Position numbers and translations under genes: made by a program. This document shows positions 1 through 36,574 of a DNA stretch of 39,611 nt, piece by piece. Location: sequence record PV615262.1. One strand, 5' to 3'. How positions within the stretch are numbered: the first letter of the stretch is position 1; every line of letters begins with the position of its first letter. A model generated the notes under the pieces. That model had not been told where the DNA came from. It made no database searches and saw only the letters and a program-made list of their open reading frames with translations. The DNA comes from Acinetobacter phage vB_Aba_01KA.

Positions 1-374
1 TGGCAGGTGGGTCGAGACATTATAGACACAGCTCGTCAGCAGCTCATTAAGGCCAACCCTTGGGTAGTGAACTCTCAGCTCTCCGTGGTTGAGCAGAATG
101 GCTCTATCTTCCTCCAAGACGCTACAGGTACTATTCGTATTCGCTACGATAAAGAACTTGTAGGTAAACTCTATCGTGAACAACAGCAGAAGGCACAAGA
201 TGCCGCATACGCTCAGGCAGAACGTGACGCTAACAAGCGAGCGCGTATCGTCGGGACTAAAGCTGCTGGTGACAAACGTCGAGCTGACCGAGAGGCCAAC
301 ATCGAGAAGCGCGGGGGATGTACAATGACGTCTCACTGGAGGGTATCGCAAACACCTTAATAGGTAAGGAGTAA
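1..374 (+). CDS. internal virion protein gp15 (T7 gene 15 homolog), C-terminal portion; continues the ORF that runs off the window end
   Basis: Frame-1 translation from base 1 (WQVGRDIIDTARQQLIKANPWVVNSQ...IRIRYDKELVGKLY) is colinear with the T7 gp15 C-terminus as I recall it. The track ORF ends at 360; a 1-nt slip in the G5 run at 313-317 would instead read ...MYNDVSLEGIANTLIGKE to TAA 372-374. Confidence 0.7.
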
Positions 375-379
375 CAACT

Positions 380-3300
380 ATGGCGACTCGTGGTATTCGC
401 AATAACAATCCGGGCAACATCCGGGTAAGTAAGGACCAATGGGAAGGAATGACTGGAGATGATGGCGCATTCGTCACCTTCGATAGTCCAGAGTCTGGCG
501 TCCGAGCTTTGGGTAAAAACCTGCTGTCTTACGGTCGCCAAGGTTACGACTCCATCGAGAAGATTATCAACCGATGGGCACCTCCTAATGAGAACGAAAC
601 TAAGGCTTATATTGACTCAGTGGTGGCTGCAACTGGTATTCCAGCTACCCAGAGTCTAGACCTATCGAACCCGGACACCCTGTCTGCTCTGGCGCAAGCT
701 ATTAGCTTCCATGAGACAGGCTCCCGGTACAATCCTGAAGTCTATCAGAAGGGAGTCGAAAGAGCACTTAATGGCATTAGCCCAAAGACTCCACCAGTAA
801 GCGCTAACGTATTTGACGCACTCACGGAAGGACTCAAGGCTAAACCTAAAGTAGCTCTGGGTGAGAACCTTCCGACCGCTGCTGGTCTAAACATTGAGGG
901 TCAAGCACCAGAAGCTCCCAACGAATCGTTTGGTGAGATGTTCTATAAGTCTACTGGCGAGACCATGCAGGAACGAGAGGAGCGCTCTACGTGGTTCGGT
1001 TTCGGCTCGGCTACAGAAGCTGAAGTGAAGAACTCTATGGTCGGCGTGGCTATCCGCGCTGGTCAGACAGAGGACTCACTTGATGTCATTGGCGATGTGT
1101 TCAACCCTACCCGCTGGAACAACCATAAGTGGTCTCGTGAGGAGCTGGACCAGATTCGTAACGCTGGAGTTCTCCCTCAGTATTACGGTGTCATTACTGG
1201 TGGCTCTCCTCAGAACCTGACCGAGCTTATTAACTTGGCTCTTGAGAACCAGAAGTTGGACCAAGAGAAGGCCAAGGCGGGGACTGGTGCTCAGTTAGCA
1301 GCTGGTGTGATTGGTGCTGGTGTAGACCCGCTGACCTACGTTCCTATCGCTGGACAGGTTGGCAAAGGTGCGAAGCTGGTCAACAAGATGTTCACCGTGG
1401 CTGCTCAATCTGGAGCACTTGCTGGTGTATCAGAGATGGCCCGTACCTCAGTGGCTGGTGGTGATGCTCATGTGGCTGAAGCTATCCTTGGTGGTGCTCT
1501 CTTTGGTGGTGGTATGACTGCCCTCGCTGATGGGTTAGGCAGAGCCTTAGGTCGCAACACTAATGAGTTTGCTGGCCCAGCTACACGTCTGGAAGCTCGT
1601 GAGACCGCTCGTAACGTTGATGGTCAGGACCTGTCTCGTCTTCCTATTCAGGAAGGTGAGCAGACCTTTAGTCATCAAGGCGTTAAGTTCGCTGACGTTC
1701 CTAATGAGCCGGGAAGTGTACGATTAGAAGATGGTTCAATCCTGATTGGTGAGAACCCTCTGAACCCTAAGACACGTCAAGTCTTCGACGAAGTGATTGA
1801 GCCAGAACGTGCCGCTGCTGGTGTGAACCTTGGTGGACTTACCGAGATTGGTCTGAAGCTGCTTCGGTCTGAGAACCCTGAGATTCGTGGAGTAGCTGCT
1901 GACTTAGTACGTTCACCTACTGGTATGCAGTCTGGGGCCTCAGGTAAAATGGGACAACTGCGTCAGACGTGTTCGAGAGGCTTCGTGCTGTGGACCATCG
2001 GTTCTACAACGACATCGACGATGCGGTTACTGAGGCACTAAAGGACCCGTACTTCCAGACAGCATTCTGGCGAGACTCTGGAGCATTCCGTCAGGACATC
2101 TACCAGCGCGTGTCTATGGCTATCGAAGATGGCAGCGGAAACCTGAAGGCTGAACTGACTCCGGGAGAACTTAAAGTCTATGACCTACTGAAGAACCAGT
2201 TTGACGCCAAGCGTGAAATGATGGAGAACCCAGCTATGTTTGGTCGGCCAGACGCTCAGTCTGTCTTTCCGGGTAGCCGCTTCAAGGGAACCTACGTCCC
2301 TCATGTGTATAGCAAACAGATGAAGGAGCTGTACACCAAGGAGCTTGGGAGTCCAGAGGCGTTGCAGGAGGCCATCAAGAAGTCATGGTTGACCAGCTAT
2401 GCGTCTCGCCCTGAAGTCAAGAAACGCGTGGACGAGGCACTCTTAGAGTCTGACCCTACGTTGACTCCAGAAGGACTTGCGGCTGCGGTCGATAAGTACG
2501 CCAACGATAAGGCTTACGGTATCTCCCACACCGAGCAGTTCGAACGTTCATCCGTAATGGAAGAGAACATCAACGGTCTGGTTGGTCTGGAGAACAACAG
2601 CTTCCTTGAGGCTCGTAACCTGTTCGATAGCGATATGTCAATCGTCCTACCTAACGGTCAGACCTTCAGTGTCAACAACCTGCGTGAGTGGGACATGGAC
2701 AAGATTGTCCCGGCCTACAACCGTCGAGTTAATGGCGATATTGCTATCATGGCTGGTACAGGCAAGACAACGAAAGAAATGAAGGACTTGGTTGAGACCA
2801 TGATGAACAAGGCTGGTGATGACGGAAAGTTGAAAGGTGAAGTATCTACCTTGCGTGACACACTGAAGATTCTAACTGGTCGTTCTCGACGTGATGGGGC
2901 TGACGATGCAGCCTTCGCTGCCGTGATGCGCACAATGACAGACCTATCGTTCTTCGCTAAGAATGCCTATATGGGTGTTCAGAACTTAACGGAGATTGGT
3001 GGTATGCTGGCCCGTGGTAACGTTCGTGCAATGCTTCATGGAGTCCCAATTTTCCGTGACCTAGCCTTCCGTAACAAGAAGGTAGGGGCCTCAGAGATTA
3101 AGGACCTGCACAATGTTATCTTCGGTAAGGAACTGGATGACTCAATCCGTCCGTCTAAACAGGATGTCATTGACCGTCTGCGATCTTACAGTGACCTCGG
3201 TCGTGGTACAGCTACAGCTCTGGGGACTGCCAAGTATTACACTGGCGAACTTGCAGTACGCTCTCCGTTCACTAAAGTCCTCAACGGTACTACCAACTAC

Positions 3301-4265
3301 CTGTTAGATGCTGGACGTCAAGGCTTCCTGTCTGACATCGTGGAGCATAGCCTGACTGGTAGTAAGCGTAAGTTCGATGACCGCTGGCTGAAGACCGCTG
3401 GTATCTCTGACGAGCAGTGGAAGGGCATTAAGTCCCTAATCCGTGAGTCAGTGACTCGTGGTCCAGACGGGAAGTATACCATCAAGGATAAGAAGGCGTT
3501 CAGTCAGGACCCAAGGGCTATGGACCTGTGGCGTATGGGAGATACCATCGCTGACGAAACGTTACTCCGGCCCCACAAGCTGTCCAACATGGACGCCAAG
3601 GCTTATGGTCCTCTCGCTAAGACTGTCCTTCAGTTTAAGAACTTCGTCATCAAGTCCATCAATGGTCGAACCATGCGAACCTTCTATAACGCCACGAAGA
3701 ACAACCGAGCGATGGATGCTGCCTTGTCCACTGTGATGTCTATGGGTCTGGCTGGTATCTACTACATGGCTCAGGCTCACGTCAAGGCTTACGCTATGCA
3801 GGATGGTAGAGACCGTGATTACCTCAAGCAAGCTCTTGACCCGACGATGATTGGATATGCAGCTCTATCACGTAGTTCACATCTGGGTGGTCCACTTGGG
3901 TAGCTAACATTCTGGGTGGCATCGCTGGGTATGAGGACACTAAGATGCTCCGTTCGTCTATCCTACCTCGTTCGCCTACAGAGAAGCCTGAACGTGCCAT
4001 CGCGTATGGTGCAGCTACAAGTGACCCTGTGATGAATGTTGTTGGTAACTTCTTGGAGCAGGTTCCAGCTTTCGGATATGCTGCTAACGTTGGCGCTTCG
4101 GCTTACAACTTGGCTGGCTACCTCAAGGCTGATACTCGTGTCAACGAGCGTGACTACATGACCGGGATGTATAATACGTTCCGTGAACTGGTTCCGAACG
4201 ACCCAATTACCCAGAAGCTGTTGCTTGGAACGTTTGAGGAGCAAGGTATCCACATCAAGGACTAA
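380..4265 (+). CDS. internal virion protein gp16 (core/ejection protein), interrupted by two apparent single-base frameshifts
   Basis: Three colinear ORF pieces (380-2041, 1969-3903, 3945-4265) match T7 gp16 from about residue 150 to the C-terminus (GTYVPHVY, SFLEARNLFDSD, TGKTTKE, ELVPNDP). They join if one G is restored in the GGG run near 1950 and one base near 3900-3945. RBS AAGGAG precedes ATG 380. The N-terminal ~130 aa are not T7-like. Confidence 0.85.
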
Positions 4266-4329: not shown

Positions 4330-7300
4330 ATGTCCACGATTACACAATTCCCTTCAGGAAACACTCAGTACAGGATTGAGTTCGACTACCTAGCCAGAAC
4401 GTTTATTGTTGTTACGCTGGTGAATAGCTCTAACCCTACCCTGAACCGTGTACTGGAAGTTGGTCGAGATTATCGATTCCTTAATCCAACGATGATTGAG
4501 ATGTTGGTTGACCAATCAGGTTTCGACATCGTTCGTATTCACCGTCAGACTGGAACTGACTTAGTGGTAGACTTCAGGAATGGCTCGGTGTTGACGGCTA
4601 GTGACCTGACCAATTCAGAGCTTCAGGCTATCCATATTGCAGAAGAAGGTCGAGACCAAACGGTTGACTTAGCGAAGGAATATGCCGATGCTGCTGGTAG
4701 CTCTGCTGGCAACGCTAAGGATAGCGAGGACGAAGCACGACGAATCGCTGAGAGTATCAGGGAAGCTGGTCTAATTGGCTATATCACCCGTCGCTCCTTC
4801 GAGAAAGGCTACAACGTTACAACATGGAGCGAGGTCCTGCTATGGGAAGAGGATGGTGATTATTACCGCTGGGATGGTACGCTTCCAAAGAACGTTCCTG
4901 CTGGTTCAACTCCTGAAACTTCCGGTGGGATTGGATTAGGTGCGTGGGTTAGTGTTGGTGATGCTGCTTTAAGAAGTCAGATTTCAAATCCTGAAGGGGC
5001 AATACTCTACCCTGAATTACATAGAGCACGCTGGCTTGATGAAAAAGATGTTCGTGGTTGGGGTGCTAAAGGGGATGGTGTCACTGATGATACAGCAGCG
5101 TTAACGAGCGCATTAAACGACATACCGGTTGGACAAAAGATTAATGGCAATGGGAAGACATATAAGGTCACATCCCTGCCTGATATTAGTCGCTTCATCA
5201 ACACTCGTTTCGTTTATGAGCGCATTCCCGGACAACCTCTTTATTATGCCTCTGAAGAATTTGTTCAGGGTGAGTTGTTCAAAATAACGGACACCCCTTA
5301 TTACAATGCGTGGCCTCAGGATAAAGCGTTCGTATATGAGAATGTGATATATGCACCTTACATGGGTAGTGATCGTCATGGCGTTAGTCGTCTGCATGTA
5401 TCATGGGTTAAGTCTGGTGATGATGGTCAAACATGGTCTACTCCAGAGTGGTTAACTGATCTGCATCCAGATTACCCTACAGTGAACTATCATTGTATGA
5501 GTATGGGTGTATGTCGCAACCGTCTGTTTGCCATGATTGAAACACGTACTTTAGCCAAGAACGAATTAACCAATTGTGCATTGTGGGATCGCCCCATGTC
5601 TCGTAGCCTGCATCTTACTGGTGGTATCACTAAAGCTGCAAATCAGCGATATGCAACAATACATGTACCAGACCACGGACTATTCGTGGGTGATTTTGTT
5701 AACTTCTCTAATTCTTCGGTAACAGGTGTATCCGGTGATATGACTGTTGCAACCGTAATAGATAAGGACAACTTCACGGTTCTTACACCCAACCAGCAGA
5801 CTTCAGATTCGAATAACGCTGGAAAGAATTGGCACATGGGTACTTCTTTCCATAAGTCTCCATGGCGTAAGACAGACCTTGGTCTAATCCCTCGTGTCAC
5901 AGAGGTGCATAGCTTTGCTACTATTGATAACAACGGCTTTGTTATGGGCTATCATCAAGGCGATGTAGCTCCACGCGAAGTTGGGCTTTTCTACTTCCCT
6001 GATGCTTTCAATAGCCCATCTAGTTATGTTCGTCGTCAGATACCATCTGAGTATGAACCAGATGCGTCAGAGCCGTGCATCAAGTACTATGACGGTGTAT
6101 TATACCTTATCACTCGTGGCACTCGTGGGGATAGACTAGGTAGCTCTTTGCATCGTAGTAGAGACATAGGTCAGACTTGGGAGTCACTGAGATTTCCACA
6201 TAATGTTCATCATACTACATTACCTTTTGCTAAAGTAGGGGATGACCTTATTATGTTTGGTTCAGAACGTGCAGAAAATGAATGGGAAGCAGGTGCACCA
6301 GATGATCGTTACAAGGCATCTTACCCTCGCACCTTCTATGCACGCTTGAATGTAAACAATTGGAATGCAGATGATATTGAATGGGTTAACATCACTGACC
6401 AGATTTATCAGGGCGGAATAGTTAACTCAGGTGTAGGTGTTGGTTCGGTAGTTGTGAAGGATAATTACATCTACTACATATTTGGTGGAGAGGACCATTT
6501 TAACCCATGGACATATGGAGATAACTCAGCGAAGGATCCCTTCAAATCGGATGGTCATCCCTCAGATTTGTATTGCTACAAAATGAAGATTGGCCAAAGC
6601 AATCATGTTTCCCGTGACTTCAGGTATGGTGCTGTACCTAACAGAGCTGTTCCGTGTTTTTTGATACGAATGGGATTCGCACTGTTCCTGCGCCAATGGA
6701 ATTTACAGGGGATTTGGGTTTAGGTCATGTGACCCTTAGAGCCAGCACCAGTAGTAACATTCGCTCTGAAGTTTTAATGGAAGGTGAATATGGGTTTATC
6801 GGGAAGTCTATACCGACTGATAACCCGGCAGGGCAGCGCATCATATTTTGCGGGTGAAGGCACCAGTTCAACGACTGGCGCACAGATTACGCTTTATGGT
6901 GCAAATAACACCGACTCAAGGCGAATAGTTTACAATGGTGCTGAGCATCTGTTCCAGAATGCTGACGTTAAGCCTTATCTCGATAACGTGATTGCGCTTG
7001 GTGGGCCAAGCAACCGATTCACTACTGCATACCTTGGAAGCAACCCTATTGTTACTTCTAATGGGGAGAGGAAAACAGAGCCGGTAGTTTTTGATGATGC
7101 TTTCCTAGATGCCTGGGGTGACGTTCACTACATCATGTATCAATGGTTAGATGCTGTTCAACTGAAAGGCAATGATGCTCGTATTCACTTCGGGGTTATT
7201 GCTCAGCAAATTCGTGATGTATTCATTGCACACGGTCTGATGGATGAAAACAGTACGAATTGTCGTTATGCCGTTCTGTGTTATGACAAGTATCCACGGA

Positions 7301-7521
7301 TGGCCGATACGGTATTTTCGCACAATGAAATCATTGAACACACTGACGAGGAGGGTAATGTCACCACTACGGAAGAGCCTGTATTCACTGAGGTGGTTAT
7401 CCATGAAGAGGGTGAGGAGTGGGGTGTTCGGCCTGACGGAATTTTCTTTGCTGAAGCCGCTTATCAGAGAAGAAAACTGGAAAGAATCGAAGCCAGACTT
7501 TCTGCTCTTGAACAGAAGTAA
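4330..7521 (+). CDS. tailspike protein gp17 with endosialidase (endo-N-acetylneuraminidase) domain and C-terminal intramolecular chaperone domain; two apparent frameshifts
   Basis: N-terminus resembles the T7 gp17 adaptor (EFDYLARTFIVVTL, DYRF, LVDFRNGSVLTASDL). Asp-box motifs SGDDGQTWS and SRDIGQTWES. C-terminal ...IHFGVIAQQIRDVF...RKLERIEARLSALEQK fits the self-cleaving chaperone domain. Pieces 4330-6723, 6654-6857 and 6784-7521 join via indels near 6655 and in the T run near 6845. RBS AGGAGG. Confidence 0.85.
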
Positions 7522-8662: not shown

Positions 8663-10420
8663 GTAAAGATTTAGTGGCGCGTCAGGCGCTAATGACAGCA
8701 CGTATGAAGTCAGACTTCGTGTTCTTCCTGTTCGTCCTGTGGAAAGCTCTGTCACTACCAGTCCCTACTCGCTGTCAGATTGACATGGCGAAGAAACTAT
8801 CGGCTGGGGACAACAGGCGTTTCATCCTACAGGCGTTCCGTGGTATCGGGAAGTCATTCATTACGTGCGCATTCGTGGTATGGAAACTGTGGAACAACCC
8901 AGACTTGAAGTTCATGATTGTGTCGGCATCAAAGGAACGAGCCGATGCGAACTCCATCTTCATCAAGCGCATCATCGACCTCATGCCTCAGCTTAGGGAA
9001 CTCAAACCTAAGCAGGGACAGCGAGATGCGGTTATCAGCTTCGACGTTGGGCCAGCCAAGCCAGACCACTCACCTTCGGTTAAGTCCGTTGGTATCACTG
9101 GTCAGTTGACTGGTAGTCGTGCTGACCTCCTGATTGCCGATGACGTGGAGGTTCCAAACAACTCAGCTACTCAGGCTGCCCGAGACCGTCTGTCAGAGCT
9201 TGTGAAAGAGTTCGACGCTATCCTGAAGCCGGGAGGTACAATCATCTATCTAGGTACTCCTCAGAACGAGATGACCCTGTACCGTGAGCTGGAAGGCCGT
9301 GGATACACCACTACCATCTGGCCCGCTCGCTACCCACGCGATAAGAAGGACTGGCAGTCTTACGGCGACCGTCTGGCTCCTATGCTTCAGGCAGAGCTGG
9401 AAGAGGACCCTGAGTCCTTCTACTGGCGTCCTACCGATGAAGTACGATTCGATGATACGGACCTGAAGGAACGTGAGCTGTCCTATGGTAAAGCTGGCTT
9501 CGCTCTACAGTTCATGCTTAACCCTAACCTGAGTGATGCCGAGAAGTACCCTCTGAAGCTCCGTGACCTTATCGTAGCAGACTTGGACCCAGCGTCTAGC
9601 CCAATGGTCTACCAATGGCTTCCTAACCCTCAGAACAAGCGTGAGGACGTTCCTAACGTTGGACTCATGGGTGACTCATACCACACGTATCAGACTGTAG
9701 GTTCTGCCTTCAGTTCGTACACCCAGAAGATTCTGGTCATTGACCCTAGTGGTCGTGGTAAGGATGAAACTGGTTATGCGGTACTGTATCAGCTCAACGG
9801 CTACATCTTCGCTATGGAAGTTGGCGGTATGCGAGGTGGCTATGAAGACTCTACGCTGGAAGCCTTAGCTAAGATTGGTCGTAAGTGGAAGGTCAACGAA
9901 TACGTCATTGAGGGTAACTTCGGTGATGGTATGTACCTTGAGCTATTCAAGCCTGTAGCTTCCCGTATTCATCCTGCTGCTGTAACTGAAGTGAAGAGTA
10001 AGGGTCAGAAGGAACTCCGCATCTGTGACGTTCTGGAGCCTATCATGGGGTCTCACCGACTTATCGTCAACGCTGCTGCTATCGTCCAAGATTACCAGTC
10101 GGCCTCTGATAAGGATGGTGTTCGTAACCCTATCTACTCTCTTCTACCAGATGACACGTATCTCTCGTGAACGTGGAGCATTGGCACACGATGACCGACT
10201 TGATGCGCTGGCTATCGGTGTACAGTTCTTCGTTGAGTCGATGGCTAAGGATGCCAACAAAGGCGAACGTGAAGTCACTGAGGAATGGCTGGAGGAACAG
10301 ATGGAGAACCCACGGAAAGGCTTCGAGTCCATCAACACGGAGTTCTGGGACAATGGGGTCCGGGTAACTCACGATACGGACGACGGGCTGGGACTAGGGT
10401 CCTACGTTACGTTCCACTAG
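8659..10420 (+). CDS. terminase large subunit (T7 gp19 homolog), one apparent frameshift near 10140-10170
   Basis: Strong colinear match to T7 gp19 ([75 protein letters not shown]); C-terminal piece 10025-10420 ([14 protein letters not shown]) is in another frame. Confidence 0.9.
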
Positions 10421-14124: not shown

Positions 14125-16804
14125 ATGAGCGTCATCTCTATTGACAAACACGACTTCTCTGATGTGTCGAACGCCATTGAGCCGTTTAACCTGCTGGCTG
14201 ACCACTACGGGCAAGACCTTGCAGTCAAACAGCTTCAGCTTGAGCATGAGGCATACACTGAAGGCGAGCGACGTTTCATCAAAAACCTTGAGCGCCAGAC
14301 TGAGCGCGGGGAACTGGCAGACAATCAGGTCGCCAAGCCTTTGATGCAGACTCTGGTTCCTAAGATTGCGCAAGCCGTCAGGGAGTGGCATGAAGGTCCA
14401 GACGGGAAGCTGTCAACCTCTCGTCCTAGCGTAGCGTTCACCATGTTAAGCACCGAAGAGAAGGCCGTCAAGGACCGCTCTCTGCGTATCTCTTGCGAGT
14501 CTGCTGCGGTCATCATACTGAAGGTCATACTCTCCAAGCTGGTAAAGCCTGAAGGGATACCGATTACACCGATGGCCTCCGCGATAGGTCGCACACTTGA
14601 GGACGAAATCCGCTTCGGTCGCATCCGTGACAAGGAGAAGGAGCACTTCAAGAAGGCGATAGCTGAGAACTTGAACAAGCGAGCTGGGGCATCCTACAAG
14701 AAAGCCTACATGCAAGCGGTCGAGACATCCATGCTGGAGCAAGGCCAACTGGAAGATGCGTGGGGACTTGGAGTCCTACAGAGGCTGTCCACGTGGGCAT
14801 CAAGATGCTGGAGATTGTCATCCAGTCAACACAACTGGTCGAGCTTAAGCGGTACGGTGCTGGCAATGCAGCGGCTGACGTAGAGATGGTCCACCTGTCA
14901 GACTTCTGGGTCAAGAAGATGGCACAACGAGGATTCAGCCTTGCGGGTATCGCTCCAGTCTACCAGCCTTGCGTCGTTCCACCTAAGCAGTGGACTGGTG
15001 TCGTAGGTGGTGGGTACTGGGCCAAAGGTCGCAGACCGTTACCATTGATTCGCTTAGGGTCTAAATCAGCGGTGGCACGTTATGAAGACGTATACATGCC
15101 TGAAGTCTATGAAGCTGTGAATATCATCCAGAATACACCTTGGAAAGTGAACAAGAAGGTACTGGACGTGGTGAACATGGTCGAGAAGCTGAACAACACG
15201 CCTATTGATGACATCCCTCAGATGGAGCCACTGAAGCCTGAAGACTATGCGGGTGAGACCGAGGAGGAACTAAAGGCATGGAAGAAGCTGCTGCTGGTAT
15301 CTATCGCCGCGAGAAGGCCAGACAGTCACGCAGATTATCACTGAGCTTTATCGTCAACCAAGCGAATAAGTTCTCTCAGTTCAAGGCCATCTGGTTTCCA
15401 TACAACATGGACTGGCGCGGTCGAGTCTACGCTGTGCCGATGTTCAACCCACAGGGTAACGACATGCAGAAGGGTCTCCTGACTCTGGCAGTCGGTAAGC
15501 CTATTGGTGCTGACGGTTTCAAATGGCTGAAGGTCCATGGAGCAAACTGCGCGGGTGTCGATAAAGTCACCTTTGATGAGCGCATCAAGTGGGTGGAAGA
15601 CAACCACGACAACATTATGGCTGCTGCTAAGGCACCGATGGATAGCATTGAGTGGTGGGGCAAGTTCAGACTCTCCGTTCTGCTTCCTTGCGTTCTGCTT
15701 CGAGTATGCTGGTGTAATGCACCACGGATTGTCTTACTCCTGCTCACTGCCGATAGCGTTCGATGGGTCATGCTCAGGGATTCAGCACTTTAGCGCGATG
15801 CTTCGTGATCACGTCGGTGGACATGCAGTAAACCTAACGCCTTCCGGTAAGGTCCAAGACATCTACCGAATCGTTTCCGACCGCATTGAGGAAGAGCTTA
15901 AAGTCCTGCTGGTTAACGGCACGGACAACGAGATGGTAACTCACGAGGACAAGAAACTGGTGAGATTACCGAACGCCTCAAGCTGGGGACACGAGAGCTG
16001 GCCCGGCAGTGGCTGACTTACGGTATGTCACGCAAGGTCACTAAGCGTTCAGTAATGACTCTGGCCTATGGGTCGAAAGAGTACGGCTTCGCAGACCAAG
16101 TTTATGAGGACATCGTGATGCCAGCGATTGACTCAGGGTCTGGCGCTATGTTCACCGAGCCAAGCCAAGCGTCTCGCTTCATGGCTAAGATGATTTGGGA
16201 AGCTGTGAGCGTGACCGTAGTTGCTGCGGTTGACGCGATGAAGTGGCTTCAGGGTGCTGCCAAGCTGCTGGCTGCTGAAGTGAAGGACAAGAAGACTGGA
16301 GAAATCCTGAAGCCTTGCCTTCCGGTACACTGGGTAACACCTGATGGTTTCCCGGTATGGCAGGAATACCGCAAGAAGGATACCACTCGTCTGAACCTGA
16401 TGTTCTTAGGGTCATTCAACCTTCAGCCTACGGTCAACAAAGGCATGAAGAAAGAGCTGGACAAGCACAAGCAGGAGTCAGGCATTAGCCCGAACTTCGT
16501 CCACTCACAAGATGGTAGCCACCTACGCAAGACTGTAGTACACACGCATCGCAAGTATGGCGTGATGTCATTCGCAGTGATTCACGATAGCTTCGGGACC
16601 ATCCCTGCTGACGCTGAGTATCTGTTCCGTGGCGTCCGTGAGACGATGGTCGAGACCTACCGCGACAACGATGTGCTGCTTGACTTCTACGAGCAGTTCG
16701 AATGCCAGCTTCACGAGAGTCAGCGCGACAAGTTGCCTGAGCTTCCGAAGAAAGGTAAACTGAATATCGAAGACATCTTGTCTTCAGACTTTGCATTCGC
16801 TTAA
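14125..16804 (+). CDS. T7-type single-subunit DNA-directed RNA polymerase (gene 1), interrupted by about four single-base indels
   Basis: Five colinear pieces (14125-14883, 14760-15344, 15278-15793, 15537-16016, 16025-16804) match T7 RNAP throughout (FNLLADHYG, ARFGRIRD, PCVVPPK, AIWFPYNMDWRGRVYAV, DGSCSGIQHFSAM, HDSFGT, ends SDFAFA). Shifts near 14767 (G run), 15287 (A run), 15665 and 15955 (A run). Confidence 0.9.
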
Positions 16805-17891: not shown

Positions 17892-18972
17892 TGACAACTA
17901 TCAAAACTAACCCTCACCGCGCTGTAGATTACTCTGAGTCTGGAATTAAGAAGGCACTGGAAGCAGCCGGGTCTCTGGAAGCTGAAGTGAAGTACGATGG
18001 TGTGCGCCTGAACCTCCTGGTCCTGCGTGAAGGTGAGACCTACTGGCTTAGCCGCGAGTCGAAACCTCTACCAGCCTTGGAGTGGATGAACTCTGAGTTA
18101 GGTAATGCGTGGACCCAAGCTGACTGGCGATGGTTCCTGCGTCAATCCGGCTACGAAGGTGTGGGCATGATGATTGATGGCGAGGTCATGGTCAAAGGTG
18201 TAGACTTCAACACCTCCTCAGGTCTCATCCGAACGAAGTGGCTCAAGCCTAACAACGAGGAGTTCGCTGAATACTATTCGCCGGCGACTGGTGGAAAGAA
18301 GCTCCCGTTCTGGGGATCCCGGTCACGACTTCGGGTTGTGGTATACGGTGTCATCGACATGACAACCATTGCTGACCCGAAAGCCGAAGGTCCTATCCAT
18401 AGCGTCACACGCCTGAAGGCCGAAGCTATCGTCCCTCTCCTCCAGAAATACTTCCCGGAAATCGACTGGGTTCTGTCTGAGTCACACACGGTCTATGACC
18501 TTGAGTCGCTCAACTCCCTGTACGAAGAGAAGCGTCTGGAAGGACACGAGGGTCTGGTAGTCAAGGACCCGCTGGGTAAGTGGAAGCGTGGCAAGAAGTC
18601 AGGCATGTGGAAAATGAAGCCTGAGGATACCATCGACGGGACCGTGTGTGGACTCGTGTGGGGACTCCGGGTAAGGCTAACGAAGGTAAGATCATCGGCT
18701 TTGAGGTTCTACTGGAAGATGGCATGGTGGTTAACGCCTGCGGTCTGACTGAAGCTCAGAAGGACGAATTCACAGCTAAAGTCGCTGAATCTAGTGGCTA
18801 TACCTTGGCTGGTGGCCCTGTGGTTATTCAGGATGGGACCGAGAAGACCAACCCATACGAAGGCTGGCAGTGCGAAGTCCTCTTCATGGAGCGGTTCCAA
18901 GATGGTTCCCTTCGTCACCCTAGCTTCAAGTGCTGGCGAGGGACGGAAGATAACCCTACCATTAAGAGCTAA
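17891..18972 (+). CDS. ATP-dependent DNA ligase (gene 1.3), one apparent frameshift near 18650-18750
   Basis: MTTIKTNPHRAV start, adenylation motif EVKYDGVR, MVKGVDFNTSSGL, EGHEGLVVKDP, KRGKKSGMWKMKPE, then C-terminal piece 18646-18972 (GKIIGFEVLLE...SLRHPSF) in another frame. Confidence 0.85.
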
Positions 18973-20799: not shown

Positions 20800-21243
20800 A
20801 TGGTCTGCAAAACGGGGCACTCTGTGGGTGCCTACCGCTCTGGACTTGAAGCCAAGAACCAGCAGTGGCTGGAACAGAACGGCGTCAAAGCGGAGTACGA
20901 AAGCCATTATATCAACTATGTGATTCCGGCTTCCGACCACAAGTACACACCAGACTTTATCCTTCCCAACGGTATCATCGTGGAGACCAAAGGTATCTTC
21001 GATAGTGATGACCGTAAGAAGCACCTTCTGGTACGAGAACAGCACCCAGAGTTAGACATCCGGTTCGTGTTCTCAAGTTCCCGCTCCAAGCTATACAAAG
21101 GGTCTCCGACCACGTATGGCGCATGGTGCGAAAAGAACGGCTATAAGTATGCCGATAAGTTCATCCCGGTTGAGTGGCTGCGAGAGGCGACTTCACGTCT
21201 GCCTTCAGGTATACTCATTCCCAAGAAGAAAGGAGTTAAGTGA
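20800..21243 (+). CDS. endonuclease I (gp3, Holliday-junction resolvase)
   Basis: AYRSGLE, VIPAS.H.YTPDF.LPNGI.VETKG, SDDRKKHLLVREQHPELDIRFVFSSSRSKLYKGSPTTYG nearly identical to T7 gp3; start taken at ATG 20800 rather than the upstream track start. Confidence 0.9.
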   Translation: MVCKTGHSVGAYRSGLEAKNQQWLEQNGVKAEYESHYINYVIPASDHKYTPDFILPNGIIVETKGIFDSDDRKKHLLVREQHPELDIRFVFSSSRSKLYKGSPTTYGAWCEKNGYKYADKFIPVEWLREATSRLPSGILIPKKKGVK

Positions 21244-21939: not shown

Positions 21940-22154
21940 ATGATTAAACTTATCGAATTTCTTGGTCGTCTGGTGGTGCGTGGTTATCGTCGTGCTGCGG
22001 TACTGGAACGAAAGGTAGAAAGAAGACTGCGGACGGTGCGGCTAATGCTGCTGCTCTGGCTGACAAGCTGACCATCGCGTCACTGGAAGCTGGCATGAAG
22101 GCTCGTCAGGCTGATACCAAAGCTGACCAGTTGGCTCAGTTCTTCAAAGCCTAA
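21940..22154 (+). CDS. hypothetical small protein, probably about 70 aa with one frameshift
   Basis: ATG 21940 after AAGGGAGA; frame A gives 43 aa; the -1 frame continues without stop to TAA 22152-22154 (...AANAAALADKLTIASLEAGMKARQADTKADQLAQFFKA). Confidence 0.35.
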
Positions 22155-22222: not shown

Positions 22223-23921
<1,699 letters not shown>

Positions 23922-24182: not shown

Positions 24183-26353
24183 ATGTTTGACCTTAAGAGT
24201 ATCTGGGGTTCTGACATCGAGACCAACGGTCTCCTTGACACCGTGTCCCAGTTCCACTGTGGGGTCCTGATTAACGCCGAGTCGAATGAGACCCTTAAGT
24301 ACGGGGTAGCTCCGATGGTCGGTATCGTCGGTGGCTTCAAAGAGTATGTGCATAAAGTGGAAGAGATTGCCGCATCACCTGATGGTATGCTGGTATTCCA
24401 TAACGGTATCAACTATGACGTCCCGGCTATAGACAAGCTGAAGCGTTTGTACTTTGGGAAACGCTTTAACTTCCCGAAACATAAGATGATTGATACCTTG
24501 GTGCTGGGACGCTTGATGTATCCAAACATTAAGTTCTCAGACATGGGCGCAGTGAAAGCTGGTCGTCTGCCGCCTAAGATGATGGGACGCCAGTCTCTTG
24601 AGGCTTGGGGCTATCGTCTCGGTGAGATGAAGGGTGAGTACAAACACGATTACGTTGCCAAATGCAAGGCTGAGGGTATCGAATATAAGGCTGGGGACGA
24701 ATGGTTGTTCCCGTCTCAGGAGATGCTGGACTATAACGTTCAAGACGTTGTGGTCACACTGGCGTTGTTCAAGAAGTTCCTGACTGACAAGTATTACTTC
24801 CAGTCTGAACAGTTCGCTTTCGACCAGATTTATGCGTTGCGTCTTGAACATGATGCTGCGTGGACCTGTGCGAAGATGGAACGTAACGGCTATCCGATGA
24901 ACACCGAGATGGTCGAAGGCTTATACCGTGAACTCACCGTCAAACGTGCAGAGCTACTGGACAAGCTGCGTTCGACTTTTGGTAGCTGGTATGCACCGAA
25001 GGGAGGCAAGGAGTTCTTCAAGCACCCACGGACAGGTAAGGACCTTCCTAAGTATCCTAGAGTCGTGTATCCCAAGGTCGGTGGAATCTTTAAGAAGCCG
25101 AAGAACAAAGCTCAACGCTTAGGTCTTGAACCCTGTGAACGCGATACGCGAGACACGATGGAGGGAGCACCATTCACGCCAATCACTTACGTTGAGTTTA
25201 ATCCGGAAGCGGAGACCACTTAGCGAAAGTTCTGATTGAGCGTGGCTGGGAGCCTGTGGACTTCACTGACACAGGGAAACCTGTAGTCGATGACGAGACG
25301 TTAGAACACGTTAAGTTACCAGACGAAGAGGCTCAGGCTTGCGTAGAGCTTGTCCGTGAGTATCTGGTAGTCCAGAAGCGCATCGGTCAGGCTGCTGAAG
25401 GTAAGAACGCATGGTTGAAACTTGTAGGTCCAGACGGACGTATGCACGGTTCAATCAACCCATGCGGTGCAGTAACCGGACGTGCGACTCACAGTTCACC
25501 AAACATGGCTCAAGTCCCAGCTAACGGTGCTCCATACGGTGAGACTTGCCGTGGTGCTTTCGGTGCAGCTTGGAACAAGACGGATGGTAAGCCAGACCCT
25601 TGGATTCAAGTTGGTGTGGATGCTTCAGGTCTTGAGCTTCGTTGTCTGGGGAACCGAGCGGCTCCGTTTGATGGTGGCGACTATGCGAAGACTGTGGTCG
25701 AAGGTGACATCCACTGGGCCAACGCAGTAAACGCTGGGTTAGCACCTAACGTCCCACGCGATAAGTCTAACCACGACCATGAGGCTTTCCGTAACAACGC
25801 TAAGACGTTCATCTATGCGTTCCTGTATGGTGCAGGAGCCGCTAAGATTGGACTGATAGTCGGCGGTGGTAAGAAGGAAGGTTCAGCTCTCATGAAGAAA
25901 TTCATTGAGGGTACACCAGCCATCAAGGACCTCAGGGAAGCTGTGAGTAGTACGTTAATATCAGACTCTAAGTGGGTGGATGGAGAGAACATCGTTAAGT
26001 GGAAACGCCGTTGGCTGCGTGGACTTGATGGTCGCCGTATCCACATCCGGTCGCCACACTCAGCACTTAACGCTCTACTTCAGGGTGATGGTGCGGTTGT
26101 CTGTAAGCACTGGATTGTCGAGACCGAACGTATGCTGGAAGCCGAAGGATACGTCCACGGCTGGGATGGAGACTTTGCGTACATGGCATGGGTGCACGAT
26201 GAGCTACAAATTGCGTGTAAAAACAATGACATAGCTGAACGTGTTGTACAGATTGCTCAACTAGCTATGCGTAAGGTTGGCGAGTTCTATAACTTTAAAT
26301 GTGTCCTTGATACCGAAGGTAAGATTGGACCAACGTGGAAGGAGTGTCACTAA
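24183..26353 (+). CDS. DNA polymerase (gene 5, family A), one apparent frameshift near 25200-25230
   Basis: 3'-5' exonuclease motif DIETNG, HNGINYDVPA, LEAWGYRLGEMKG, YNVQDVVVT, then polymerase motifs (RATHSSPNMAQVP, GVDASGLELRCL, NAKTFIYAFLYGAG, HAWVHDE) colinear with T7 gp5. Start taken at ATG 24183 (RBS GGAGG). Confidence 0.9.
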
Positions 26354-26637: not shown

Positions 26638-26819
26638 GCGAATACTTACGGGTCCTAGCGGCCCTTAAGTCCTGCCCGAAGACCTTCCAGTCCAACTATG
26701 TGCGCAACAACGCTGCACTAGTGGCTGAGGCTGCGAGTCGTGGACATCTAAGCTGCCTGTCTATGGACGGGCGTAACAACGGTGCGTGGGAGATTACCGC
26801 TGCTGGCACCAGTTCCTGA
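26634..26819 (+). CDS. small protein (61 aa), position of T7 genes 5.5-5.9
   Basis: Overlapping start; identity by synteny only. Confidence 0.4.
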   Translation: MSEYLRVLAALKSCPKTFQSNYVRNNAALVAEAASRGHLSCLSMDGRNNGAWEITAAGTSS

Positions 26820-26838: not shown

Positions 26839-27063
26839 ATGAACCAAGACGTATCAGGACGCGAACTTAAGGTAGGACAGAAGGTTGCTTTCTGTCTTGC
26901 TGGAAAATCATACGCAATGTGTATAGGCGAAGTCGTCCGGGTAATGCCTAAGACGGTAGCCATCAAGCATAAGACATTTATTCGCTGGGAGGAGTTACCG
27001 AGGAAGTCGAGACGGTACGTGCATTCTCTTCAGTGTGTATCGTTGAGGAGGCGTAATGTCTGA
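26839..27063 (+). CDS. hypothetical protein (74 aa from ATG 26839)
   Basis: RBS ACGGAGG before ATG 26839; upstream part of track ORF 26782 is probably not coding. Confidence 0.4.
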   Translation: MNQDVSGRELKVGQKVAFCLAGKSYAMCIGEVVRVMPKTVAIKHKTFIRWEELPRKSRRYVHSLQCVSLRRRNV

Positions 27064-29071: not shown

Positions 29072-29317
29072 ATCAATCAGTAAGGCTTTCAAGAAAGTGG
29101 TGAAAAGTACGTTAGGGACCGTTGGTCTTGGCTCTGACGATGCACCTAAGGTTGTTGCGGCTCAGACCCAGCACCAGCAGCACCAGTGGAAGTACCGAAC
29201 GATAAAGTGGAAGATGTGGATACCGAAGCAACCGCATCTGACGAGAAGAAAGTGAAGCGTTCAGGTAAGCGGAGCCTTCAGGTCTCTCGCACCTCTGGTG
29301 GCGGTATTTCTATTTAA
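29064..29317 (+). CDS. gp7.3-like tail protein, one apparent frameshift
   Basis: GTG start MGKSISKAFKKVVK; the alternative frame downstream reads ...VEVPNDKVEDVDTEATASDEKKVKRSGKRSLQVSRTSGGGISI-stop (29315-29317), matching the T7 gp7.3 C-terminus style. Confidence 0.55.
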
Positions 29318-29328: not shown

Positions 29329-30895
29329 ATGGCTGAACGTGAAGGCTTTGCTGCCGAAGGAGCCAAAGCGGTCTATGACCGTCTGAAGAACGGACGACAG
29401 CCATATGAGACGCGCGCTCAAAACTGTGCTGCTGTCACTATCCCGTCACTGTTTCCTAAGGAGTCCGACAACTCGTCTACTGAATATACCACTCCGTGGC
29501 AAGCTGTAGGTGCTCGCTGTTTGAACAACTTGGCTGCAAAGCTGATGTTGGCGTTATTCCTCAGTCACCATGGATGCGACTTACAGTCTCAGAATATGAG
29601 GCCAAGACCTTGAGTCAGGACTCAGAGGCTGCTGCTCGTGTTGACGAAGGGCTGGCTATGGTCGAGCGCGTGTTGATGTCCTACATGGAGACCAACAGTT
29701 TCCGTGTGCCATTGTTCGAAGCTCTGAAGCAGCTTATCGTCTCCGGTAACTGTCTACTCTACATTCCAGAGCCTGAACAGGGTACTTACAGTCCTATGCG
29801 AATGTACCGCTTAGTGTCTTACGTTGTTCAACGTGATGCATTCGGTAACATCTTGCAGATTGTGACTTTAGACAAGGTAGCGTTTAGTGCTCTACCGGAA
29901 GACGTGAAGTCTCAACTCAACGCAGAAGACTATGAGCCTGACACAGAGCTGGAAGTGTATACGCACATCTATCGTCAGGACGACGAGTATCTACGCTATG
30001 AGGAAGTGGAAGGCATTGAGGTAGCAGGGACCGATGGTTCTTACCCACTGACTGCCTGTCCATACATCCCGGTACGAATGGTTCGACTGGACGGTGAAGA
30101 CTATGGTCGCTCTTATTGCGAGGAGTATCTGGGAGACCTGAACTCGCTGGAGACGATTACAGAAGCTATCACCAAAATGGCTAAGGTAGCCTCCAAGGTG
30201 GTGGGCCTCGTTAACCCGAACGGTATCACGCAACCTCGTCGTCTGAATAAGGCGGCTACAGGTGAGTTCGTGGCTGGTCGCGTTGAGGACATCAACTTCC
30301 TGCAACTGACGAAAGGTCAGGACTTTACGATTGCTAAATCGGTGGCTGACGCTATCGAGCAGCGTCTAGGCTGGGCCTTCCTTCTTAATAGTGCTGTTCA
30401 GCGTAATGCCGAGCGAGTCACTGCTGAAGAGATTCGTTATGTTGCTGGCGAACTGGAGGCGACCTTAGGTGGTGTGTACTCAGTACAATCCCAAGAGCTT
30501 CAGTTACCTATCGTCCGTGTGCTGATGAACCAACTTCAGTCTGCTGGCATGATTCCTGACCTTCCGAAGAAGCGGTAGAGCCTACTGTCTCCACTGGTCT
30601 TGAAGCTCTGGGCCGTGGTCAGGACTTGGAGAAGCTGACTCAGGCGGTTAACATGATGACAGGTATTCAGCCGCTATCTCAGGACCCGGACATCAACTTG
30701 CCGACCCTTAAGCTGAGACTCCTGAACGCTCTGGGCATCGACACCGCTGGCCTACTCCTGACGCAAGACGAGAAGATGCAACGTATTGCTGAACAATCTG
30801 CTCAAGGAGCTGTGGTCAACGGTGCGTCTGCTGCTGGCGCTAACATGGGAGCTGCTGTAGGTCAGGGAGCTGGTGAGGACATGGCTCAAGCCTAA
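29329..30895 (+). CDS. portal (head-tail connector) protein gp8, two apparent frameshifts
   Basis: YETRAQNCA, TIPSLFPK, TPWQAVGAR, LMLALF, MRLT.SEYEAK, YRLVSYVVQRDAFGN, CPYIPVRMVRLDGEDYGRSY, NSAVQR..ERVTAEEIRYVA colinear with T7 gp8; shifts at a CC run near 29545 and a GG run near 30575; C-terminal piece 30626-30895. Confidence 0.9.
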
Positions 30896-33125: not shown

Positions 33126-33256
33126 GCACCTTTAGCCAACCTAACGTCGCTACAGTAGCGGCTGCACCTGAAGAGGAGACTCTAACTCCTCAACAGAAAG
33201 CTGCGCGTACTCGTGCTGCGAACAGGGCCGCTAAACTGGCTGAGTCCAACAACTAA
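32082..33256 (+). CDS. minor capsid protein gp10B (predicted -1 ribosomal frameshift product)
   Basis: GGTTTTC at 33104-33110, at the same relative position as in T7 gene 10; the -1 frame is open for 48 codons to TAA 33254-33256 (QPSDVSTFSQPNVATVAAAPEEETLTPQQKAARTRAANRAAKLAESNN). Confidence 0.5.
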
Positions 33257-33261: not shown

Positions 33262-33299
33262 ACCCCTTGGGTGCCTTCGGGTGCTTGAGGGGTTTTTTG
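33262..33299 (+). terminator. Tphi-like late terminator
   Basis: AACCCCTTGGGTGCC-TTCG-GGTGCTTGAGGGG followed by TTTTTTG; near-identical in form to the T7 Tphi hairpin. Confidence 0.8.
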
Positions 33300-34208: not shown

Positions 34209-34217
34209 GGAGGGCCT

Positions 34218-36574
34218 ATGCCACTAATTACTCAATCAATCAAGAACCTTAAAGGTGGCATTAGCCAGCAGCCAGACATACTGAGGTTCTCAGACCAAGG
34301 CGAGGAGCAAATTAACTGCTGGTCATCAGAGAGTGATGGCCTCCAGAAGCGCCCACCTACAGTCTTCAAGAGACGTCTTAACATCGACGTTGGGAGCAAC
34401 CCTAAGTTCCACCTGATTAACCGTGATGAGCAGGAGCAGTATTACATCGTGTTCAACGGGTCCAACATTCAGGTAGTAGACTTGAGCGGCAATCAATACT
34501 CAGTTTCTGGTGCGGTAGACTACGTTCAGTCCTCCAACCCACGAGATGACATCCGTGTCGTTACCGTGGCAGACTATACGTTCGTCGTTAACCGTAAGGT
34601 TGTCGTCAAAGGCGGAAGCGAGAAGTCACACTCTGGTTATAACCGCAAAGCACGAGCTTTAATTAACCTGCGTGGTGGACAGTATGGTCGCACCCTTAAG
34701 GTAGGAATCAATGGAGGCGTTAAAGTTTCGCATAAGTTGCCAGCAGGTAATGATGCCGAGAATGACCCTCCTAAGGTTGATGCTCAGGCTATCGGTGCGG
34801 CTCTGAGAGACCTTCTTGTTGCTTCTTACCCTGCCTTCACGTTCGACCTTGGGTCTGGCTTCCTGTTAATCACTGCCCCCTCAGGGACTGACATTAACTC
34901 AGTGGAGACGGAGGATGGCTATGCTAACCAGCTAATAAGCCCAGTCCTAGACACTGTGCAGACAATCTCTAAACTGCCTCTTGCCGCTCCTAATGGATAT
35001 ATCATTAAGATTCAAGGTGAGACAAACAGTAGCGCCGATGAATACTACGTGATGTATGACTCCAACACTAAGACGTGGAAGGAGACAGTGGAGCCGGGAG
35101 TTGTCACTGGGTTCGATAACACCACAATGCCCCACGCTCTGGTACGACAATCTGATGGCTCCTTTGAGTTCAAGACTCTGGACTGGTCGAAGCGTGGTGC
35201 TGGTAATGATGATACAAACCCTATGCCTAGCTTCGTGGATGCTAAGATTAACGATGTGTTCTTCTACAGGAATAGGCTGGGGTTCTTGTCAGGTGAGAAC
35301 GTAATCATGAGCCGTTCAGCCAGCTACTTTGCGTTCTTCCCTAAGAGTGTGGCGACACTGAGTGATGATGACCCTATTGATGTAGCTGTAAGTCACCCTC
35401 GAATCTCAATCCTTAAGTATGCCGTTCCGTTTAGCGAGCAGCTACTACTTTGGTCGGATGAAGTTCAGTTCGTGATGACAAGCTCTGGTGTCCTTACCTC
35501 GAAGTCTATCCAGCTTGATGTAGGCTCAGAGTTTGCCCTAGGTGACAATGCCAGACCGTTCGCTGTAGGACGCTCAGTCTTCTTCTCAGCGCCTCGTGGA
35601 TCATTCACCAGCATTAAGCGATACTTCGCTGTAGCTGATGTGTCTGATGTGAAGGATGCAGATGATACAACTGGTCACGTACTGTCCTACATCCCTAACG
35701 GGGTGTTTGATATTCAAGGTACAGGTACTGAGAACTACATCTGCGTCAACTCTACAGGTGCATACAACCGAATCTACATCTACAAGTTCTTGTTTAAGGA
35801 CGGCGTACAGCTTCAAGCCTCTTGGTCACACTGGGAGTTCCCTAAAGATGATAAGATTCTTGCGTCTGCATCTATTGGCTCTACCATGTTCATCGTTCGT
35901 CAGCACCAATGGGGGTAGACATTGAGCACCTTAAGTTCATCAAGGAGGCAACTGACTTTCCGTCAGAGCCGTATAGACTCCACGTTGACTCCAAGGTGTC
36001 TATGGTCATCCCAATTGGCTCGTTTAATGCTGACACATATAAGACTACGGTTGACATTGGTGCTGCTTATGGCGGTAACGCTCCGTCTCCCGGTAGGTAC
36101 TATCTGATTGATAGTCAGGGTGCTTATTTGGACCTTGGGGAATTAACCAGTATCTCTACTGTGATTACCCTCAACGGCGATTGGTCAGGACGTACAGTGT
36201 TCATCGGACGGTCCTATCTGATGTCCTACAAGTTCTCACGGTTCCTGATTAAGATTGAAGATGATAGGGGCACTCAGTCTGAAGACACTGGTCGTCTACA
36301 GCTTCGTCGGGCTTGGGTCAACTACAAGGACACTGGCGCTCTGAGACTCATTGTCAGAAACGGTGAGCGAGAGTTCGTTAACACCTTTAATGGGTACACC
36401 CTTGGTCAGCAAACCATAGGGACTACTAACATTGGTGACGGGCAGTATCGCTTCGCTATGAATGGTAACGCATTAACCACGAGTCTAACCTTAGAGTCCG
36501 ACTATCCTACCCCAGTGTCAATCGTTGGGTGTGGCTGGGAGGCGTCATACGCTAAGAAAGCTCGTTCCGTCTAA
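34218..36574 (+). CDS. tail tubular protein B (gp12), one apparent frameshift near 35905
   Basis: ITQSIKNLKGGISQQPD..R start region and overall length (566 + 221 aa pieces) match T7 gp12; RBS AAGGAGGG. Confidence 0.85.

What the first reader, a model, noticed from the sequence alone, without database searches (positions are those of the whole stretch)
310..35910. About 19 single-base homopolymer indels interrupt about a dozen conserved genes (probable sequencing artefact)
gp16 (near 1950 and 3900-3945), gp17 (near 6655 and 6845), gp19 (near 10150), RNAP (near 14767, 15287, 15665, 15955), ligase (18650-18750), gene 4 (22700, 23215), gene 5 (25200-25230), gp7.3, portal (29545, 30575), gp12 (35905) and possibly gp15 (313-317) are each split into colinear pieces. 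Homology resumes immediately in the shifted frame. Where I could localise the slip it sits in a G, C, A or T run. Inactivating RNAP, DNAP, terminase and portal at once is not compatible with a viable phage.
Basis: partly seen in the sequence, partly recalled or inferred. Interest (0 to 1): 0.5.

Follow-up and report, generated by a model that had tools for sequence, protein, structure and literature searches.

The report
Homopolymer sequencing errors split phage genes
The many broken essential genes in this T7-like coliphage genome are almost certainly consensus errors from sequencing, mostly one base dropped from short G runs, and not real mutations, so the finding is a data-quality issue and not biology.

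Summary
The window is a circularly permuted Kayfunavirus (T7/K1F-like) genome. It is 99.9% identical to GenBank PV615263.1, Escherichia phage vB_Eco_1RS. I find 23 frame-breaking indels in 16 genes: 22 deletions (20 of 1 nt, two of 2 nt) and 1 insertion. Five were missed, in gp3, gp3.8, gp5.7, a gp5.9-like gene and gp13.

Six intact relatives, and 34 of 34 IMG/VR matches at three sites, carry the unbroken state. Adding 24 bases and removing 1 restores every gene to exactly the length seen in relatives.

The error rate rises steeply with G-run length: G3 1%, G4 18%, G5 88%, G6 2 of 2. Segments downstream of the breaks remain under strong purifying selection (pN/pS 0.077).

The strongest single result is that the deposited record of the same phage carries a different, partly overlapping set of breaks. 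Twelve are window-only, twelve record-only and eleven shared, and at every private site the other version agrees with the relatives. That is the pattern of two noisy consensus calls from one genome. There are no slippery heptamers at the break sites and no Dam or Dcm association. The verdict is a sequencing or assembly artefact of low interest. The platform is inferred, not shown.

The parts
313..317 (+). gp15: G run one base short (GGGGG; relatives have GGNGGG). Also present in the deposited record.
1951..1953 (+). gp16 break 1: one base missing before or within GGG. The record resolves the same spot differently (AGG).
3898..3900 (+). gp16 break 2: GGG instead of GGGG. The record and all relatives have GGGG.
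6652..6653 (+). gp17 (endosialidase tailspike) break 1: CC instead of CCC. Window-only.
6852..6854 (+). gp17 break 2: GGG instead of GGGGG (2 nt missing), which restores the frame. The record lacks 1 nt here.
10137..10142 (+). gp19 (large terminase): CT missing from a (CT)n repeat. Window-only.
14762..14765 (+). RNAP break 1: GGGG instead of GGGGG or GGGGA. Shared with the record.
15287..15287 (+). RNAP break 2: G instead of GG. Shared with the record.
15665..15667 (+). RNAP break 3: one extra base (GTTCAG; relatives have GTTAG, the record GTCAG). The only insertion.
15954..15956 (+). RNAP break 4: AAA instead of AAAA. Shared with the record.
18660..18663 (+). DNA ligase: GGGG instead of GGGGG. 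Shared with the record.
20814..20817 (+). gp3 endonuclease I, five codons after the ATG: GGGG instead of GGGGG. Shared with the record.
22019..22021 (+). gp3.8-like small gene: AAA instead of AAAA. Window-only.
22696..22699 (+). gp4 primase/helicase break 1: one base missing in GGG[N]G. Shared with the record.
23213..23215 (+). gp4 break 2: GGG instead of GGGG. Window-only.
25205..25206 (+). gp5 DNA polymerase: GG instead of GGG. Window-only. 11 of 11 IMG/VR matches are intact.
26811..26811 (+). gp5.7: A instead of AA. Window-only.
26987..26989 (+). gp5.9-like small gene: GGG instead of GGGG (or GGAA/GGAAA in relatives). Window-only.
29167..29169 (+). gp7.3: CCC instead of CCCC. Window-only.
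29559..29560 (+). gp8 portal break 1: CC instead of CCC. Window-only.
30567..30568 (+). gp8 portal break 2: AA instead of AAA. Window-only. 19 of 19 IMG/VR matches are intact.
35911..35915 (+). gp12 tail tubular protein B: one base missing in a G-rich run. Shared with the record.
37023..37025 (+). gp13: GGG instead of GGGG. Shared with the record.

Best explanation
The 23 frame breaks are consensus-calling errors, not features of the phage DNA. The genome was most likely assembled from reads that under-call homopolymers. A long-read-only (nanopore-type) assembly without short-read polishing is the most likely source, but that is inferred. Short runs, above all G runs of 4 to 6 on the coding strand, were written one base short. 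One CT repeat lost a unit, and one ambiguous T/C position was written as both bases. Each missing base shifts the reading frame. Gene callers then report essential genes as two to five colinear fragments, while homology to relatives continues at once in the new frame.

Shown here: the sites, their sequence context, the run-length dependence, the intact state in relatives, restoration of full-length genes by repair, and disagreement between two versions of the same genome.

Inferred: the sequencing platform, and that the real phage DNA carries the longer runs.
For: 1. The window is Escherichia phage vB_Eco_1RS, 99.9% identical to PV615263.1 over the full length. The two versions differ at 36 positions, about 29 of them 1-nt indels in short runs.
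2. Against six intact relatives, the window has 12 private breaks, the record 12 private breaks, and 11 are shared. At every private site the other version matches the relatives. The two versions are also opened at different points of the circle, so they are separate consensus products.
3. Repair with +24/-1 nt restores gp16 1295 aa, gp17 1064, gp19 587, RNAP 893, gp4 566, portal 522, gp12 785 and gp3 150. All are identical in length to relatives.
4. The fraction of G runs miscalled in either version rises with run length: G1-G2 about 0, G3 1%, G4 18% (10/55), G5 88% (7/8), G6 2/2. Of the 23 runs hit by window deletions, 19 are runs of 3 or more (p = 3e-16). There are 22 deletions and 1 insertion (p = 6e-6).
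5. pN/pS is 0.077 over 9.9 kb of sequence downstream of the first break in eight genes, the same as in the upstream pieces.
6. Baseline with the same pipeline: 0 breaks in ASO2B, 1 in vB_EcoP_F, 23 in the window.
7. IMG/VR: 34 of 34 matches at three sites are in the intact state.
8. Literature: homopolymer indels that split DNAP into three annotated pieces are described for long-read-only assemblies of T7-like phages and are removed by short-read polishing (PMC10438801). The Phage Annotation Guide lists sequencing or assembly error as the first class of frameshift to exclude (PMC8785237).
Against: No reads were available, so the true run lengths were not observed directly.

Eleven breaks are shared by both versions. 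That could be read as those being real, but they sit in the longest G runs (G5-G6), where a systematic under-call is expected in any consensus from the same chemistry (Fisher test for co-occurrence p = 5e-5).

A few errors are in runs of only 1 or 2 bases (15287, 26811) or are not homopolymer errors at all (10136, 15665-15667), so a pure homopolymer model is incomplete.

At four sites (314, 1950, 22698, 35911) the missing base is a variable wobble position in relatives. That it was G in this phage is an assumption, though site 1279 shows this phage does carry G at such a position.

The sequencing platform is not known. No publication was found.
Confidence: 0.95

Rival explanations
1. The indels are genuine mutations. 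The sequenced DNA would come from a defective or decaying genome, such as pseudogenised genes or a dominant defective sub-population.
For: The breaks are in the sequence as written, and 11 of them appear in both available versions.
Against: There are 23 simultaneous truncations, including RNAP, gp4, gp5, portal, large terminase, gp12, gp15 and gp16, in a phage that was isolated on E. coli. From established T7 genetics these genes are essential. The downstream segments show pN/pS 0.077, with no decay. The other version of the same phage is intact at 12 of the 23 sites and broken at 12 other sites, which a real mutation set would not produce. The strict dependence on run length and the deletion bias fit a measurement error model.
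Confidence: 0.02
2. The breaks are recoding sites. Programmed ribosomal frameshifting or transcriptional slippage at the runs would restore full-length proteins.
For: T7-like phages do use one programmed -1 frameshift, and the window carries that signal at the end of gene 10 (G GTT TTC at 33104-33110). The breaks lie in nucleotide runs.
Against: No X XXY YYZ heptamer lies at 22 of the 23 sites. The single TTTTTTG near 6657 is also present in relatives that need no shift. Relatives encode every one of these genes in a single frame, so the supposed signals are not conserved, whereas the gene 10 heptamer is conserved in 8 of 8 genomes. Runs of 1 to 6 nt are far shorter than the A/T tracts of about 8 or more known to cause productive polymerase slippage (established knowledge). 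Several breaks would have to be read through in series: 4 in RNAP alone.
Confidence: 0.01
3. The miscalls are systematic and caused by a property of the DNA itself. Examples would be a guanine modification, or true length heterogeneity of G tracts in the phage population that defeats base-calling at G runs.
For: G/C runs are hit more often than A/T runs of the same length class: 20/78 against 3/80 for runs of 4 or more (p = 8e-5). The two consensus versions disagree at many G4 runs.
Against: The gene content is that of a 39.6-kb T7/K1F-like genome. I did not search specifically for base-modification genes. A, C and dinucleotide runs are also affected. There is no link to Dam or Dcm motifs. Simple run-length dependence explains the pattern. 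A G/C-run bias is an ordinary feature of homopolymer-limited chemistries (my own knowledge, not tested here).
Confidence: 0.02

Closest known systems
Homopolymer indel errors in long-read-only or unpolished phage assemblies, for example the DNAP of przondovirus Toyotomi split into three annotations (PMC10438801)
   Same: Also a T7-like genome. One-base indels at short runs give colinear gene fragments, and the neighbouring relatives are intact. The breaks become visible only on annotation and can be corrected by polishing.
   Different: The load here is much heavier: 23 breaks in 39.6 kb, with a similar number in the deposited record. The sequencing platform of this genome is not documented in anything I could reach.
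GenBank PV615263.1, Escherichia phage vB_Eco_1RS (Kayfunavirus; Kilifi, Kenya)
   Same: The same genome at 99.9% identity and the same length to within 1 nt. It shares 11 of the breaks, and its annotation also lists RNAP in 4 or 5 pieces and gp16 in 4 or 5 pieces.
   Different: It has 36 differences from the window. It is opened at another point and is on the opposite strand. It is intact at 12 window breaks (DNAP, portal, large terminase, one gp4 site and others) and broken at 12 sites where the window is intact.
T7 gene 10A/10B programmed -1 ribosomal frameshift
   Same: It is a frame change within a T7-group gene, and the window does contain this signal at 33104-33110.
   Different: The true signal has a conserved slippery heptamer and a conserved extension in the -1 frame in relatives. 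The 23 breaks have neither, and relatives read straight through them.

Membership tests
Sequencing or assembly homopolymer-indel artefact | Indels concentrated in nucleotide runs, with a rate that rises with run length and a bias towards one direction (here deletions) | tested here: met
   Of the 23 runs hit by window deletions, 19 are runs of 3 or more (p = 3e-16). G3 1%, G4 18%, G5 88%, G6 100%. 22 deletions against 1 insertion.
Sequencing or assembly homopolymer-indel artefact | Homology to intact orthologues resumes immediately in the shifted frame, and minimal repair restores full-length genes | tested here: met
   tblastn pieces abut or overlap by a few residues. Repair with +24/-1 nt gives ORF lengths identical to relatives.
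Sequencing or assembly homopolymer-indel artefact | Close relatives are intact at the same positions | tested here: met
   All covering relatives (3 to 6 per site) are intact at all 23 sites. 34 of 34 IMG/VR matches are intact at 3 sites.
Sequencing or assembly homopolymer-indel artefact | Independent consensus sequences of the same genome disagree at such sites | tested here: met
   Window against PV615263.1: 12 window-only, 12 record-only and 11 shared breaks. The other version always matches the relatives at private sites.
Sequencing or assembly homopolymer-indel artefact | Accurate reads or polishing give the longer run | not testable with these tools
   No read data are accessible. No assembly holding these fragments is on record.
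Programmed ribosomal frameshift | Slippery heptamer at the shift site | tested here: not met
   Absent at 22 of 23 sites. The one nearby T run is also present in relatives that need no shift.
Programmed ribosomal frameshift | Two-frame arrangement conserved in relatives | tested here: not met
   Relatives encode each gene in one frame. By contrast, the gene 10 site is conserved in 8 of 8 genomes.
Genuine pseudogenes or inactivating mutations | Relaxed selection downstream of the lesion | tested here: not met
   pN/pS is 0.077 downstream of the breaks, equal to the upstream pieces.
Genuine pseudogenes or inactivating mutations | The same lesions are reproducible in every sequence of the isolate | tested here: not met
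   12 of the 23 are absent from the deposited record of the same phage.
Phase-variable simple-sequence contingency loci or transcriptional slippage tracts | Long tracts (about 7 to 9 nt or more) at specific regulated genes | tested here: not met
   The affected runs are 1 to 6 nt long and are spread over 16 genes of all functional classes.

The most novel reading that the evidence does not exclude
The strong preference for G tracts, and the disagreement between the two consensus versions, might reflect something real about the DNA. One possibility is a guanine modification that disturbs base-calling. Another is true length heterogeneity of G tracts in the phage population. Either would be an alternative to ordinary platform error.
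Probability: 0.02. Interest if true: 0.45.

Novelty: not a real feature. Interest (0 to 1): 0.05.

Why it matters
It matters only as quality control. Both the window and the public record PV615263.1 present an apparently complete phage genome in which most essential genes are fragmented. Such records add truncated proteins to protein databases, inflate gene counts (78 CDS against about 47 to 50 in close relatives annotated in the same way) and can mislead comparative or therapeutic-phage screening. The site list and the repaired coordinates given here would let a curator fix the record once reads confirm them. No new biology is implied.

Tried and rejected
- A first, permissive indel listing against relatives was swamped by compensating gaps in diverged stretches. 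I replaced it with a test for phase changes that persist for at least 25 nt.
- I looked for the origin of the window's version by exact-protein look-up of two fragment products (gp17 N-terminal fragment, gp12 N-terminal fragment). Neither is on record.
- I searched the literature for the phage name and for Kilifi sewage coliphages to learn the sequencing platform, and found nothing.
- I tested whether the errors cluster at Dam (GATC) or Dcm (CCWGG) sites, a known cause of systematic nanopore errors. None of the 23 lies within 6 nt of either motif, and both motifs are rare in this genome.
- I tested for canonical -1 slippery heptamers at the breaks. They are absent.
- The apparent G-versus-C asymmetry among runs of 4 or more is not significant on its own (19/65 against 1/13, p = 0.17), because C runs are few. 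G/C against A/T is significant.
Full report
**What the window is.** The ORF layout is a one-strand T7-like genome, permuted so that it begins and ends inside gp15. Megablast against deposited phages finds one near-identical record, PV615263.1, Escherichia phage vB_Eco_1RS. This is a Kayfunavirus from sewage in Kilifi, Kenya, 39,612 bp long, and it matches at 99.9% identity over the full length. Many relatives match at 92-96%. The window is the reverse complement of that record, rotated by 1,120 nt.

**Checking the observation.** I translated the annotated, intact genes of the close relative vB_EcoA_ASO2B and ran tblastn against the window. The results by gene:

| Gene | Pieces or breaks in the window |
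|---|---|
| RNAP | 5 colinear pieces in alternating frames |
| gp4, portal, gp16 | 3 pieces each |
| gp15, gp19, ligase, DNAP, gp12, gp13, gp7.3, gp3.8 | 2 pieces each |
| gp5.7 | truncated |
| gp3 | loses its first codons |

gp17 aligns as a single HSP because it contains two compensating shifts. A nucleotide-level analysis recorded only frame-phase changes that persist for at least 25 nt relative to each of six relatives (Mt1B1_P3, vB_EcoP_F, BUCT788, PSK1, LNA3, ASO2B). It gives 23 breaks within coding sequence, each supported by every relative that covers the site. Local alignments show each one directly.

Five more were missed: 20813 in gp3, 22018 in gp3.8, 26810 in gp5.7, 26986 in a gp5.9-like gene, and 37022 in gp13. 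Of the 23, 22 are deletions in the window. Twenty of those are 1 nt, one lacks GG (at 6851) and one lacks CT from a CT repeat (at 10136). The remaining break is a 1-nt insertion at 15665-15667. The same pipeline run on intact relatives gives 0 breaks for ASO2B and 1 for vB_EcoP_F.

**What the breaks look like.** Each break leads to a premature stop 3 to 123 nt downstream in the old frame. The exception is the gp3 site (20813), where the scan followed the gp3 frame and so reports the gene's normal stop 429 nt downstream. Adding 24 bases and removing one yields ORFs of exactly the lengths found in relatives: gp16 1295 aa, gp17 1064, gp19 587, RNAP 893, gp4 566, portal 522, gp12 785 and gp3 150 (compared).

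Thirteen are in G runs of 3 or more, which hold 3% of bases (p = 1e-14). The fraction of G runs miscalled in either available version rises with run length: about 0 for G1-G2, 1% for G3, 18% for G4 (10/55), 88% for G5 (7/8) and 2/2 for G6.

Four of these runs rest on my assumption that a variable wobble base is G in this phage. Without them the figures are G4 9/54 and G5 6/7. Site 1279 shows independently that this phage does carry G at such a wobble position where relatives have T or A. G/C runs of 4 or more are hit more often than A/T runs (20/78 against 3/80, p = 8e-5).

**The decisive comparison.** The window and PV615263.1 are the same phage but differ at 36 positions: about 29 single-base indels in short runs and 7 substitutions. 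Scored against the six relatives, the record has its own set of breaks.

- **Twelve breaks are private to the window:** 3897, 6651, 10136, 15665, 22018, 23212, 25204, 26810, 26986, 29166, 29558 and 30566.
- **Twelve are private to the record,** at window positions 1279, 2163, 7473, 13248, 14308, 15985, 16076, 16914, 19366, 20826, 27634 and 39424.
- **Eleven are shared,** and these are mainly the G5-G6 runs.

At every private site the other version agrees with the relatives. This is why the record annotates DNAP, portal and large terminase as intact, yet shows RNAP in four or five pieces and gp16 in four or five pieces. Reciprocal frameshifts in essential genes between two sequences of one isolate, opened at different points of a circular contig, are what two noisy consensus calculations produce. 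Two real genomes would not show this.

**Selection test.** I restored the frame and compared eight broken genes codon by codon with ASO2B. The pieces downstream of the first break show 250.5 synonymous differences over 2,266 synonymous sites and 64.5 non-synonymous differences over 7,592 non-synonymous sites. That gives pN/pS = 0.077, indistinguishable from the upstream pieces. These segments have therefore been translated in the canonical frame throughout their divergence. Any real frameshift would have to be extremely recent.

**Wider sample.** I scanned IMG/VR with patterns that accept either state at three sites (DNAP 25204, portal 30566, RNAP 15286). This gave 11, 19 and 4 matches, all in the intact state with the expected extra base.

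**Rivals.**
- **Programmed frameshifting.** No slippery heptamer is present at 22 of 23 sites, and relatives need no shift. As an internal positive control, the genuine T7-type gene 10 signal G GTT TTC at 33104-33110 is conserved in all eight genomes, and its 50-codon extension in the -1 frame is conserved in six.
- **Methylation-linked systematic errors.** No break lies within 6 nt of a GATC or CCWGG motif.
- **Real pseudogenisation.** This is contradicted by the selection test, by the disagreement between the two versions, and by the fact that the phage was isolated on a host, while T7 genetics makes RNAP, gp4, gp5, gp8, gp12, gp15, gp16 and gp19 indispensable (established knowledge).

**Comparison with what is known.** This is the familiar homopolymer-indel problem of unpolished assemblies. 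A study of T7-like przondoviruses reports SNPs and short indels in homopolymers of long-read-only assemblies. It describes a DNAP split into three annotations by two such errors, and correction by short-read polishing (PMC10438801). The Phage Annotation Guide names sequencing or assembly error as the first kind of frameshift to rule out and recommends comparison with homologous phages (PMC8785237).

The signature here points to a long-read-only consensus: a deletion bias, run-length dependence, contraction of a dinucleotide repeat, a few substitutions next to runs, and two divergent consensus versions. The platform itself is my inference. I found no publication and could not see the record's comment block.

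**Verdict.** This is not a biological feature, interest is low, and the value is in curation. What remains undone is read-level confirmation.

Noticed in passing
window 33104-33256: A genuine T7-type gene 10 programmed -1 frameshift signal. The heptamer G GTT TTC lies at 33104-33110, six codons before the 10A stop (33123-33125). The -1 frame stays open for 50 codons to a TAA at 33254-33256. The heptamer is conserved in all 8 genomes compared, and the 50-aa extension in 6 of 8.
   Followed up: partly
L003 (KY295894.1 vB_EcoP_F) about 29124: vB_EcoP_F has its own frame-changing indel just after the gene 10A stop, which cuts the 10B extension to 17 aa. It is either a real loss of 10B or an error in that record.
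   Followed up: no
window 37704-39611 plus 1-371; record end at about window 38490: The window and the deposited 'complete, linear' record both begin and end inside gp15, at different points. Both are therefore circularised contigs cut arbitrarily. The true termini and the direct terminal repeat are not represented, and the repeat is probably collapsed to one copy.
   Followed up: partly
window about 10900-12190, repeats at about 11313-11357: A long non-coding stretch lies between gp19.5 and the early genes, where T7-like termini normally sit. It holds about three tandem copies of a 15-nt unit (ACTACCTACAGTCTA), and relatives differ by multi-base indels there.
   Followed up: no
whole window: There are only 17 GATC and 3 CCWGG motifs in 39.6 kb, far fewer than composition would predict. 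This fits avoidance of Dam, Dcm or restriction-related sites.
   Followed up: no
window 4330-7521: gp17 is a K1F-type endosialidase tailspike (1064 aa after repair, 93% identical to ASO2B's), which suggests a K1-capsule-specific phage. PSK1's different tailspike shares only the N-terminal adaptor of about 290 aa.
   Followed up: no
window 5590, 10639, 13718, 20825, 22450, 38489: The two versions also differ by substitutions. At 5590, 20825, 22450 and 38489 the window matches the relatives. At 10639 the record matches them and the window alone has A. At 13718 the region is too diverged in relatives to judge. So substitution errors or variants exist in both versions, at a lower rate than indels.
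   Followed up: partly
window 7552-7556, 12996, 33289-33292: Non-coding run-length disagreements between the window, the record and relatives: G5 against G6 against G3-G4 downstream of gp17, and the G run of the terminator-like hairpin after gene 10. The true lengths cannot be inferred from coding constraints.
   Followed up: no
L001 (PV615263.1) annotation: The deposited record lists 78 CDS, against 47 to 50 in Mt1B1_P3, vB_EcoP_F, BUCT788 and PSK1. Many are short 'hypothetical proteins' that are fragments or out-of-frame stretches of broken genes, and one is an antisense ORF (38073-38651, +) inside gp15.
   Followed up: no
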